Assembly (NCBI GenBank): GCA_964016885.1
Contig: OZ024751.1
Location: forward strand, 27,218,001-27,282,000
Length of the DNA: 64,000 nt
Direction: 5' to 3'
From: Eledone cirrhosa
Lineage: Eukaryota
Positions 48,227-58,466 of the stretch are shown piece by piece; position 1 is the first letter of the stretch, and each line of letters starts with the position of its first letter. The position numbers were made by a program, and so were the translations under genes. The notes below the pieces were generated by a model, which was not told the DNA's origin, ran no database searches, and saw nothing but the letters and a program-made list of their open reading frames with translations.

Positions 48227-48412
48227 ATAGGAAAAAGTATGACCCCGACGGCAGAGCTCAAGCCGTTTCGACGTCCAGAAATAGCCGTCGAAACGGCTTG
48301 AGCTCTGCCGTCGGGGTCATACTTTTTCCTATTTCCCACTCTACTACTCTAAGTATTGAGTACTCTGGTGCGTTAAGGTCCATCTGGTTCCTTACCACAA
48401 TTCCTTTGTTAT
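48227..48412. mobile_element. Foldback family C, copy 1
   Basis: 47-bp perfect arms 48227-48273 and 48286-48332, ~80-nt tail, (TA)n flanks; homologous to 58273-58466. Confidence 0.88.
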
Positions 48413-50452
48413 ATATATAATATATATATTATATATATATTATATATATATATATATATATATATATATATTTATATATATATATATATTTATATATATA
48501 TATATATTTATATATATATATATATTTATATATATATATATATTTATATATATATATATTTATATATATATATAATATATATATATATATATATTATTTA
48601 TATATATATATATATAATATATAATATATATATATATATATATATAAATATATACTGTGACGTCAAAGGACGTGTGGAAGGAGGAAATGAGACAGATAGA
48701 AAGGAAGGTGGTAGAAAGGAAGAGGGGGGAGGAGGGATAGACAGGCATAATTGTGACGAGAGGGCTGCAAGGGAGAGAGAGGGGGGTGAGACAAAGTAAA
48801 ATATAAGGATAGAGAAGTATATAAAAGGGAGGAGGAAGAGGAGGAGAAAAGTGACAGAAGAAGGAAGGAGGGAGAGGGAGAAAGAGAGAGTGTGTGTGTG
48901 TAAGACGGAGTGAGGGGGGAAGACGGTGTAGTAGTGACAGAGGGAGGAAGGGAAATAGGGAGAAAGGACGAGAGAGTGACAGTAAGGTAGAGGTAGGAGG
49001 GAGGGTGATGAAGGAGGGTGAGAAGGAAAGAGGGAGGGTGAGAAGGGGAGGGAGGATGAGAAGGAGGGTGAGAAGGGGAGGGAGGGTGAGAAGGAGGGTG
49101 AGAAGGAGGGTGAGAAGGGGGGGGGGGGTGAAGTGGAGTCCCAGTAATAAAAAAAGAGGTTAAAGAGAAAAGGTGAGAGAAGATAGTTGGGTGGGGGGGG
49201 GGGGGGCTTTTGTTTACCTTTACATAATGATGGTTGGGGGTGGTGGGTAGGTGGTGGTGGTGGTGGTGGTGGATGAGTTGTGGTGGTGGTGGTGGGTAGG
49301 TGGTGGTGGTGGGTGAGCTGTGGTGGTGGTGGTGGGTGAGTATTGGTGGTGGTGGTGGGTATGTGGTGGTGGTTGGTGAGTTGTGGTGGTGGTGGTGGGT
49401 GAGTTGTGGTGGTGGTGGTGGGTGAGTTGTGGTGGTGGTGGTGGGTGAGTTGTGGTGGCGGTGGTGGGTAGGTGGTGGTGGTGGGTGAGTTGTGGTGGTG
49501 GTGGGTGGTGGTGGTGGTGGTGGTGGTGGTAGTGGTGGTGGTGGTGGGTGAGTGGCAATGGTGGGTGGGTGAGTGTTAGGTGAGTTGTGGTGGTGGTGGT
49601 GGTGGTAGGTGAGTTGTGGTGGCGGTGGTGGTGGTGATGGGTGAGTTGTGGTGTGGTGGGTGGTGGTGGGTGGGTTGTGGTAGTGGTGGTGGTGATGGTG
49701 GGTGGGTGGGTGGGTGGGTGGTGGTGGTGGTGGGTGGATGAATGGTAGTGGAGGTGGTGGTGGTGGGTGAGTGGTGCTGGTGGTGGTGGTGGTGGATAGT
49801 GTTTGAGGTTGTGGTGTTAGTATGACCACTGGTCAGCTCTAACCAATGACAGGCCGTCACCACACCACTATACTACAACTAGCACTTGATAAGCCAAGGG
49901 TCCTTCTAAGGTGCGTTGTGATGGATATTTGGCTGCTATTTCTTGAACTTTCGTTGTTCTTCTGATTGGGAGGGGGTAGTGGGCGTGCGTGTGGGAGTTA
50001 TGGTGGTGGGGATGATAGTGGTGGTGGGAGTGGGGTGATAGTGGGGAAGCGATAGTGGTTGTAGTGGTAGTAGTGGTGGTAGTTGTAGAGTTGGTAGAGG
50101 TGGTAGTGGTTGTAGTGGTAGTAGTGGTAGTGGTGGTAGAAGTGGTAGTGGTTGTAGTGGTAGCGGTGGTAGTAGTAGTGGTGGTAGACGTGGTTGTAGT
50201 GGTAGCGGTGGTAGTTGTAGAGGTGGTAGTGGTGGTAATGGTAGTGCTGGAAGAGGTGGTAGTGGTGGTAGTTGTAGTGGTGGTAGTGGTAGTAGTGGTA
50301 GTGCTGGAAGAGGTGGTAGTGGTGGTAGTAGAGGTGGTAGTGAAGAGGTATAGGTGTTCTAGTTAGGCACCAGTATACTGATCAATAATCAATACGCCGT
50401 AATCCACGCAGTTCAAGATTAAAATCCGATTCATTTATCTTGTGTTACGCCA

Positions 50453-50566
50453 GTAACGTTGCTGACGTCATCTAACAGATCTGACGTCAGCAACGTCACC
50501 CAACGTTAACGTTTGCTCCCTAAAGTCTTTCATCTTTTCACCGTCAGCTGAGTGTCGTTACGTAAC
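50453..50566. promoter_or_regulatory. Cluster of bZIP palindromes (two CRE TGACGTCA in an inverted repeat, plus GTTACGTAAC)
   Basis: TGACGTCA at 50463 and 50482; arms 50456-50470 and 50482-50496; GTTACGTAAC at 50557-50566. Confidence 0.4.
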
Positions 50567-50996
50567 CCACTCCCCCTTGCCACCCACTTATTTTCTACCT
50601 CTATTTCTCTCTTTCCTTCTTTCTTTCTTTCTTTCTTTCTTCTTTTTTTTCTCTCTTTCTCTTTCTTTCTCCCTTTCTTTCTCTCTTTTTATTTGTCTCT
50701 TTATTTGTCTCTTTCTTTCTTTCTCTCACTCTCATTCTTTCTCTATCATTCTCTGTCTCATTTTCTTTCTTTCTTTTCCTCTCTTTCTTTCTTTCTCTCT
50801 TTCTCTCTTTCTCTCTTTCTCTCTCTCTCTCTCTCTCTTCCTTTCTCCCTTTATTTCTCTCTTTCTCAATTTCTTTCTTTCTTTCTCTCTCTCACTCACT
50901 TTCTTTCTTTCACTTTTTCTTTCTTTTTCTCTTTCTTTCTCCCTTTCCTTCTTTCTCTATTTCTTTCTTTATTTCTTCTTTCTCTCCCCCTCTCTC

Positions 50997-57000: not shown

Positions 57001-57381
57001 ACACACACATATATATATATATATATATATATATATATATGTAGTGTAAATATGTGTGTATGTTTGAGGGGTATGTTTCAATGTCTCCGTCACCATCCTT
57101 ACATCCCACCCACATATTCTAACTTTGAGGGTGCAAGAGTGAAAGAGCTAAGAGAGAGAGAGAGAGAGAGAGAGAGAGAGAGAGAGAGAGAGAGAGACGG
57201 GGGGGGGACAGAGACAGAGAGAGAAAATGTGGTTGATAACTACATAGATATATTGATATTCATATATAATTACATATCTCTCTCGCTCGCTCTCTCTCTC
57301 TCTCTCCACACACACACACACACACACACACACACACACACACACACACACACACACACACACACACATGTATATACATAT

Positions 57382-58153
57382 ATAATCATGGTCAAAGTTT
57401 TAAGACCGCTTTACAATCCATAATCCTCCATTTCGCTATAAACTAATATTTTCTATGTTCACCTTGCTAACGAGACATACTGGAAGAACCTGGCAATATT
57501 CCTATAAAACTTCTTTAATCTATACGTATCAATAACTTTCACTAACCATTTTGCACTGGATGGTTGTTTGCGGGGAGGTCTGCAAGGTTTCTGGCCAAAT
57601 TCAGGAATCAACCAGCGTGATGCAGTCTTACGACTTAACCCTGTTTCTCTTAGAATCAGTGCAGCTCTAAATGTTTTTGGATTAACATGTAGGAAAACGT
57701 GAACCACGAACATGTAGGAGAACGTCAAGTACGGTCATCTCTAACGGTAGTTTTTCCTGTAGGCAGCAACTTCCCTTCTTGACGAACAGGAGCCAAAACT
57801 TTGATATTTGTTTAAAGTATTTATTGACTGTAGTTCTGCTACAAAATATGTGACAGAAATCTGCCGCTGTAAGCTACCTGTGGCGTATACAAATAATATT
57901 TGGGGGTCTTTGAAGGTCAGAAACTGATGATGTTTTCGCTCATATTTTAAATATAGAAATTTAACAAGAACTATTTATTACACACGCACAAATTTTAAAC
58001 TAGTAAAAAGCTACAAATACTTAATGAGGAGGATACGATAGATTAAAATAATTGCAAAGTAAAAAAAAAAACAGAAAACACAATTGATGATCAAATACTT
58101 TGCAATAATTGAAACATTCACCGGGTTTTCTTAAAGTTTTGGTCATGGTTGTA
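57382..58153. mobile_element. Possible decayed Tc1-like element with imperfect TIRs
   Basis: Left TA-taatcatggtcaaagttttaag versus right (reverse complement) TA-caaccatgaccaaaactttaag; the minus strand encodes an HTH-like ILRETGLSRKTASRWL. Confidence 0.4.
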
Positions 58154-58272
58154 TCTATCTATCTATCTATCTATCTATCTCTCTCTCTCTCTCTCTCTCT
58201 CTCTCTATATATATATATATATATATATATATATATATATATATATATATATATATATATATATATATATAT

Positions 58273-58466
58273 AGGAACGAGTAGGACCCCGACGGCTGAG
58301 CTCAAGCCGTTTCGACGGCTAATTCGCGTCCAGAATAAGCCGTCGAAAGGGCTTGAGCTCAGCCGTCGGGGTCCTACTCGTTCCTGTTACCCACTCTACT
58401 ACCCTAAATATTGAGTACTTTGGTGTGTTATGGTCCATCTGGTTCCTTACCATATTTCCTTCGTTA
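58273..58466. mobile_element. Foldback family C, copy 2
   Basis: Arms 58273-58320 and 58338-58385, tail homologous to 48333-48412, (TA)n on both sides. Confidence 0.88.

What the first reader, a model, noticed from the sequence alone, without database searches (positions are those of the whole stretch)
48227..58466. Family C copies differ between loci but match between arms
Seen: copy 1 has ggaaaaagtatgacc and ggcagagc, while copy 2 has ggaacgagtaggacc and ggctgagc. Each variant is mirrored in both arms of its own locus, and the turn point differs. Inference: each foldback is made from one template at insertion (template switch or self-priming during reverse transcription), or the arms are homogenised afterwards. 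The varying turn point argues against fixed MITE TIRs.
Basis: partly seen in the sequence, partly recalled or inferred. Interest (0 to 1): 0.7.

Follow-up and report, generated by a model that had tools for sequence, protein, structure and literature searches.

The report
Penelope-type twin-armed hairpin insertions
Two short DNA hairpins sitting in TA repeats are copies of a very common 137-base jumping element carrying half a hammerhead-ribozyme motif, likely pasted in by a Penelope-type reverse transcriptase that copied the same short RNA onto both cut strands; the layout is a known one, and these copies are a clean natural record of it.

Summary
Observation confirmed: the four diagnostic differences between copies are mirrored in both arms of each locus (4 locus-pattern, 0 side-pattern columns), and the turn differs. 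Public reads show what varies. The forward copy starts at one fixed base (48273/58328), the inverted arm's outer end and the 80-nt tail end are fixed, and only the inverted arm's inner end moves (13 loop lengths among 24 pieces). The unit is a 137-nt non-coding sequence holding only the 3' half of a type I hammerhead. Layout (inverted arm, one-sided tail, (TA)n) is the published Penelope-like insertion, closest to the Hydra clade. Arms were likely made at insertion, not homogenised: copy 2 keeps two unmirrored changes. Twin priming at two RNA start sites fits better than hairpin self-priming: junction microhomology is 0-1 nt, and a neighbouring family's left arm holds sequence its right arm lacks. 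Not a MITE. No parent ORF was found. The scan has already reported this architecture, and probably this family, on other DNA of this genome. Known kind; modest interest.

The parts
48209..48229 (.). (TA)n tract left of copy 1
   Evidence: sequence
48230..48272 (-). copy 1 inverted (left) arm, mirror of 48287-48329
   Evidence: 0 mismatches
48273..48409 (+). copy 1 forward unit, 137 nt, starting at the family-wide fixed 5' base
   Evidence: loose ends before 48273 in 203/232/207 contigs and 1191 reads; depth step at 48273 in run X6
48273..48318 (+). 3' half of a type I hammerhead motif: predicted loop II, stem II 3' strand, GAAA, 5-bp stem III with palindromic loop, GUC cut triplet (cut after 48312), stem I 3' strand; no CUGAnGA
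   Evidence: 19 of 5000 shuffles; register compared by eye with Hydra-clade table
48330..48409 (+). copy 1 one-sided tail, 80 nt
48338..48361 (+). ACTC...GAGT stem motif 9 nt after the arm end, shared with unrelated families in the window
   Evidence: motif taken from earlier finding e1-8671399
48410..48650 (.). (TA)n-rich tract right of copy 1 (end approximate)
   Evidence: sequence
58206..58273 (.). (TA)n tract left of copy 2
58274..58325 (-). copy 2 inverted (left) arm, mirror of 58333-58384
58326..58327 (.). two extra junction bases belonging to neither arm nor unit
   Evidence: most reads crossing here carry other letters
58328..58464 (+). copy 2 forward unit, 137 nt, same fixed 5' base; right-arm changes at 58337 and 58349; tail 58385-58464
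58393..58416 (+). ACTC...GAGT stem motif in copy 2 tail
58465..58530 (.). (TA)n tract right of copy 2

Best explanation
Each hairpin is likely a single insertion of a 137-nt non-coding RNA by a Penelope-like (probably Hydra-clade) reverse transcriptase-endonuclease, primed twice at a cut (TA)n tract. Shown: three fixed ends (unit 5' base, inverted-arm outer end, tail end), a variable inner end of the inverted arm, mirrored variants, half a hammerhead motif. Inferred: the enzyme nicks both strands of (TA)n; one end primes at the tail end of the RNA, the other at an internal site 80 nt upstream, just before the ACTC stem; both cDNAs run through the uncut hammerhead towards the RNA's 5' end; their 3' ends are joined head to head with 0-1 nt microhomology, trimming and a few added bases. 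The arms match because both cDNAs come from the same RNA, or from two RNAs of one source. They then drift without conversion.
For: Fixed ends: (TA)n directly behind 58385 in 2792 and 2334 reads and 75 and 62 contigs; tail always ending in (TA)n; 5' boundary at 48273. Variable inner end: joints 48273/48276 (7, 6, 5 contigs; 6 reads), 48273/48278 (4, 5, 5 contigs; 4 reads), 48293 and 48298 to 48273 with 5-6 added letters; net loop lengths -10 to +15. Microhomology 0-1 nt at all 8 positions computed; the 48276 joint would need a 1-3 nt loop if intramolecular. In neighbouring family A, the left arm at 7256-7351 holds element sequence absent from that locus's right part, so it was not copied from it. 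ACTC at +7 to +10 in 7 of 8 fold-backs, full motif in 5 of 8. Published: two internal RT start sites bound the tail, both strands are nicked and extended, hammerhead cleavage is not needed (PMC11167929); inverted 5'-truncated copy, tail and (TA)n preference (PMC8557442).
Against: No RT or GIY-YIG ORF tied to the family: 0 of 86 window ORFs hit such a Pfam family, and 3 family C motifs of 11 nt were absent from the PLE supplement. The 5' hammerhead core was not seen upstream in reads. The tail (80 nt) is longer than the published 30-40 bp. The left-only argument comes from family A, not C, and later deletion could mimic it. The family A tree did not recover arms by locus: 0 of 3 inner branches well supported, and the left arm of 37436 grouped with the 7170 arms. 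Some loop lengths recur at several loci, which whole-hairpin copying would also give. (TA)n behind 58385 mixes inverted arms with tail-less forward copies. RAD runs are cut inside the loop, and only the top rows of each table were shown (536 and 160 loose-end rows hidden).
Confidence: 0.6

Rival explanations
1. Same Penelope-type origin, but by snap-back: one cDNA runs from the tail to the RNA's 5' end, jumps back onto itself at a variable point, copies itself up to a stop before the ACTC stem, and is joined to the other (TA)n end.
For: Gives identical arms automatically and explains why the forward copy is complete while the inverted arm is variable. Self-priming was proposed for PLE inverted junctions with palindromes (PMC3846280, passages). 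RTs can jump with little homology (recalled).
Against: No palindrome at the junctions; microhomology 0-1 nt; the 48276 joint and the +13/+15 pieces leave a 0-3 nt loop. Family A left arm carries sequence its right part lacks. A fixed stop shared by unrelated families matches the published second RT start.
Confidence: 0.2
2. Whole hairpin-plus-tail units are themselves copied from several fold-back master loci, so arm identity and loop length are inherited rather than made at each insertion.
For: Loop classes recur: net 0 in 3 of 24 pieces with 7-11 other letters; +11 and +1 at summed depths above single-locus depth.
Against: At least 13 loop classes; over 200 contigs per run join the fixed 5' base to unrelated AT-rich DNA with no inverted arm; added junction letters differ between loci.
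Confidence: 0.1
3. Arms were homogenised after insertion by intra-locus gene conversion or cruciform repair.
For: Copy 1 arms are identical over 44 bp; copy 2 has 2 arm differences where about 5 are expected from its tail divergence (P = 0.10).
Against: Copy 2's two right-arm changes are unmirrored, and no family-minority letter is mirrored in both arms; the mirrored variants are circulating family polymorphisms.
Confidence: 0.07
4. MITE of a DNA transposon with terminal inverted repeats in TA sites.
For: Inverted repeat, TA flanks, high copy number.
Against: The repeat is not terminal (80-nt tail outside it), its length varies by locus, many copies have no inverted arm, and the unit carries a hammerhead half.
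Confidence: 0.02

Closest known systems
Hydra-clade EN+ Penelope-like elements, e.g. Hydra-1_Obim, Hydra-2_Amil, Penelope-13_HM (Craig et al. 2021, PMC8557442; passages, section 11, supplement part 2 and search passages seen)
   Same: (TA)n insertion; type I hammerhead near the 3' end; inverted 5'-truncated copy at the 5' end (noted for Penelope-13_HM); by eye, the same register of a 7-nt stem II strand, CGAA and AC..GT-H, and a similar tail stem at the 3' end of the record just before Hydra-1_Obim in the supplement.
   Different: No ORF; only the 3' half of the hammerhead; 9-nt loop III instead of 1-3 nt; fixed 5' end at the start of the predicted loop II; no exact 11-nt match to the published sequences.
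Poseidon PLE of Anolis carolinensis in vitro (Frangieh et al. 2024, PMC11167929; parts 1-2 of 4 read)
   Same: Two internal RT start sites bounding the tail; both strands nicked and extended at AT-rich DNA; uncut hammerhead RNA used as template.
   Different: Autonomous, other clade, shorter tail; the part read does not show how the two products are joined into an inverted pair.
Inverted-pLTR insertions of Adineta vaga Penelope elements (Arkhipova et al. 2013, PMC3846280; passages seen)
   Same: Shorter inverted copy head to head with the direct copy; tail on one side.
   Different: There palindromes at the junction suggested self-priming; here junctions have 0-1 nt microhomology and added bases.
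L1 twin priming (Ostertag and Kazazian 2001; recalled, not read)
   Same: Both target ends prime on the RNA and the cDNAs are end-joined.
   Different: L1 gives an inversion without duplication and a variable internal priming site; here the region is duplicated and the internal site is fixed.
Metazoan non-LTR retrozymes (10.64898/2026.07.22.740005, part 1 of 5 read; PMC7229834, listing only)
   Same: Short, non-coding, hammerhead-related, thought to use PLE enzymes.
   Different: Retrozymes are tandem units with a whole hammerhead; these are single or head-to-head units with half of one.

Membership tests
EN+ Penelope-like element insertion | Inverted 5'-truncated copy at the 5' end | tested here: met
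EN+ Penelope-like element insertion | One-sided tail between two fixed 3' ends | tested here: met
   80 nt, longer than the published 30-40 bp
EN+ Penelope-like element insertion | (TA)n target | tested here: met
   many non-inverted copies have non-(TA)n AT-rich DNA at the 5' side
EN+ Penelope-like element insertion | Type I hammerhead in the 3' repeat | tested here: inconclusive
   3' half present (19 of 5000 shuffles, post hoc); CUGAnGA absent; no Rfam match at gathering score
EN+ Penelope-like element (autonomous) | RT plus GIY-YIG ORF linked to this 3' end | tested here: not met
   no ORF in the copies; 0 of 86 window ORFs. A parent elsewhere could not be sought: no genome held
Hydra clade | RT/EN motifs (DKT, CxCX5C linker, no CCHH) | not testable with these tools
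   no linked protein
MITE | Terminal inverted repeats of fixed length at both ends | tested here: not met
   tail outside the repeat; variable arm; arm-less copies
Non-LTR retrozyme | Tandem units each with a complete hammerhead | tested here: not met
   single units, half motif; tandem copies elsewhere not excluded
tRNA-derived SINE | tRNA-like head with A and B boxes | tested here: inconclusive
   no tRNA family among 95 Rfam matches in 54000-60500; boxes not recognised by eye; no dedicated scan run

The most novel reading that the evidence does not exclude
Family C is a SINE-like parasite of Penelope-type enzymes with a defined 5' end inside a broken hammerhead, and its thousands of head-to-head copies record twin priming directly: both nicked strands copy the same short RNA from two signal-defined start sites to its 5' end, and the cDNAs are end-joined. 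That would explain the inverted copy and one-sided tail of PLE insertions by one mechanism and give a 137-nt minimal template for in vitro work.
Probability: 0.45. Interest if true: 0.55.

Novelty: new member of a known kind. Interest (0 to 1): 0.3.

Why it matters
The layout is published, but how PLE inverted copies form is stated as open in PMC8557442 and only partly addressed in PMC11167929. A short high-copy family with three fixed ends and one variable end lets twin priming, snap-back and conversion be told apart by counting junctions. It also warns that such hairpins can be mistaken for MITEs. The increment from this finding is limited because the scan has reported the same architecture and mechanism on other DNA.

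Tried and rejected
Own-genome search: no genome held, so no many-locus arm phylogeny. Rfam at gathering score: 0 matches in the window; at E up to 10 in 54000-60500: 95 matches, none at gathering score and no hammerhead family. Metagenome pattern scan: 3 loci, all short chance matches in unrelated sequence. Sequencing-run search: no RNA holder listed, so expression and cleavage are untested. Idea that the turn is a fold-back at the native stem II hairpin: rejected as the main route, since the predicted +5 class was 1 of 24 pieces. Idea that a breakpoint is the hammerhead cut site: rejected, arms span it. HDV-like fold at the fixed 5' end: looked for by eye only, not seen. Tree of six family A arms: unresolved. 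Pfam on 86 of 86 non-repetitive ORFs of 55 aa or more: no RT or GIY-YIG. Sequence look-up in earlier findings: nothing; place look-up near: nothing. Literature searches that showed no paper on twin priming of PLE inverted copies or on this family: (listings; held library only; bioRxiv supplements and Repbase/Dfam not seen, and they may hold this family).

Full report
Observation. Both copies are real. Copy 1 (48230-48409) has 47-bp arms with 0 mismatches and 12 nt between them; copy 2 (58274-58464) has 53-bp arms with 2 mismatches and 7 nt between (the arm counts include 1-3 bases shared with the TA tracts). Each lies between (TA)n tracts and has an unpaired 80-nt tail. The forward units differ at 17 of 140 positions. 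In the columns shared by all four arms, 4 split by locus, 0 by side, 1 is a singleton. Copy 2 folds with z = -15.9.

What the unit is. Read on the + strand, the forward copy holds the 3' half of a type I hammerhead motif: GAAA, a 5-bp stem III closed by a palindrome-bearing loop, the GUC triplet (cut predicted after 48312/58367) and a stem I strand. GAAA plus a 5-bp stem plus UH arose in 19 of 5000 shuffles (a test chosen after seeing the motif). Copy 2's right arm has lost one stem III pair; its left arm keeps it. There is no CUGAnGA, and Rfam gave no match. Other fold-backs in the window carry the whole core, which fixes the orientation by analogy. By eye the register matches Hydra-clade hammerheads in the supplement of PMC8557442, placing the unit's first base at the start of loop II.

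Family-wide anatomy. No genome was held, so I laid public data of the same species on the copies: contigs of one sample (X1-X3) and RAD reads of three others (X4-X6). About 7,400-8,100 contigs per run and 14,000-19,000 reads per RAD run were laid, so the family is very abundant; the depths are no copy number. Three ends are fixed. (1) (TA)n follows 58385 in 2792 and 2334 reads and 75 and 62 contigs; this mixes inverted arms with tail-less forward copies. (2) The tail ends in (TA)n at about 58464. (3) The forward copy begins at 48273: loose ends before that base in 203, 232 and 207 contigs and 1191 reads, with unrelated AT-rich upstream sequence (agreement 0.42-0.49), against 24 and 32 contigs before 48274; X6 depth steps from 101 to 1692 there. 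The boundary in arm-less copies may lie a few bases further upstream, since their consensus ends in TTA. What varies is the inner end of the inverted arm: joints 48273/48276 and 48273/48278, others from 48293 and 48298 with 5-6 added letters, and 13 net loop lengths from -10 to +15 among the 24 pieces listed of over 23,000. Limits: the RAD runs are cut at an AATT in the loop (6401 and 6568 molecules end at 58334); contigs collapse repeats; only top rows are shown. So this is a list of classes, not a frequency spectrum.

At insertion or afterwards. The four mirrored variants circulate in the family: for example copy 1's letter at 58361 is in 445 of 2809 and 1787 of 9091 X4 reads, and copy 2's letter is in 6891 of 11989 X6 reads. 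They therefore predate insertion. Copy 2's two arm mismatches (58337, 58349) are right-arm departures from a family majority that the left arm keeps; its tail has four such departures; none is mirrored. Two differences where about five are expected has P = 0.10: no sign of conversion, with low power. Whether one RNA molecule or two of the same source were used cannot be told from two loci.

Mechanism. Snap-back needs the cDNA end to pair with itself. Microhomology is 0-1 nt at all 8 junction positions computed, and the best-supported strand-switch joint (48276) would leave a 1-3 nt loop (this rests on my reading of the joint table, which agrees with the +11 pieces). In family A, the left arm of the 7170 locus carries hammerhead-core sequence that matches other copies but is absent from its own right part; the 37436 locus shows a similar left-only stretch shared with 7170. 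Neither arm can then be a copy of the other, unless part was deleted later. Pairwise site patterns among three family A loci gave 2, 6 and 4 locus columns and 0 side columns (not independent), but the tree on 80 columns was unresolved and one 37436 site is discordant. An ACTC starts 7-10 nt after the arm end in 7 of 8 fold-backs with a tail, and the full ACTC...GAGT motif is in 5 of 8 from four families, against 0-5 of 2000 shuffles each (motif taken from e1-8671399, so not a blind test). In vitro, a Penelope-type protein nicks and extends both strands, starts at two internal RNA sites that bound the tail, and uses uncut RNA (PMC11167929). Together these favour twin priming from two fixed sites followed by end-joining (0.6) over snap-back (0.2), whole-hairpin copying (0.1), conversion (0.07) and MITE (0.02). 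What sets the fixed 5' end (a transcription start, processing, or an RT stop at stem II) is unexplained.

Comparison with what is known. Inverted 5'-truncated copy, one-sided tail and (TA)n bias are described for EN+ PLEs (PMC8557442; PMC3846280), with hammerheads in their repeats (PMC4209133, parts 1-2 of 4). Family C works like these and meets the insertion-layout tests, but no RT/EN parent was tied to it, so clade membership is unproven. The host looks octopus-like (recalled from repeat content; not tested); a repeat survey of Octopus vulgaris lists Penelope-like and MITE families without this detail in the passages seen (PMC13282606). Earlier notes of this scan on other pieces of this genome describe the same architecture, twin priming and a half-hammerhead family of the same size; they are unchecked and not counted as support. 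I had reached twin priming before seeing them; the Hydra and ACTC-stem leads came from them.

Verdict. Real, correctly observed, largely a known kind. The useful additions are that the turn varies on one side only and that junction geometry disfavours self-priming. Interest 0.3.

Noticed in passing
window 7170-7689, 37436-37812, 56346-56669 (fold-backs); 6225-6450, 31985-32145 (single): Family A: AT-rich element with a complete minimal hammerhead core, fixed left-arm end and 76-90 nt tail; both arms vary at the inner end.
   Followed up: partly
window 14569-14975, 37015-37420, 56687-56996, 16991-17289, 59883-60083: Further unrelated fold-backs; the first three have a one-sided tail and TA flanks; 14569 has a whole hammerhead core in both arms, three others a GAAA-stem III-like half.
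   Followed up: partly
window 37436-37736: At one site the left arm matches the 7170 locus and the right arm matches the 56346 locus: two different templates or a repeated mutation.
   Followed up: partly
joints 58338/58387 and 58338/58427: Opposite-strand joints that could be inversions without duplication (L1-like), or full hairpins split by the aligner; not resolvable from the table.
   Followed up: no
table 5c, 48258 to 48298: One junction in all three contig runs has both arms cut back and 7 inserted letters that by chance or not complete a CTGATGAG.
   Followed up: no
loose end before 58338: A second subfamily whose first bases differ but align to the same 5' position.
   Followed up: partly
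window 14423-14492 and 48045-48114: Identical 70-nt sequence in opposite orientation, the second copy between (TA)n tracts just left of copy 1.
   Followed up: no
window 8500 (-), 16627 (-), 55444 (+), 8039 (+): Isolated hammerhead cores with a short stem II.
   Followed up: no
window 1-360 (-): ORF matching PF07984 nucleotidyltransferase (E 2e-33), likely a host exon.
   Followed up: no
window 45573-45890 (+), 13171-13383 (-), 25789-25983 and 35862-36032 (+): Fragments matching Exo_endo_phos, DDE_3 and C2H2 zinc fingers; the last two lie in a 600-bp duplication, 25405-26018/35489-36094.
   Followed up: no
window about 50998-53710 and 9163-12300: A 27-29 bp satellite array between the two copies, and a 41-bp tandem array.
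   Followed up: no
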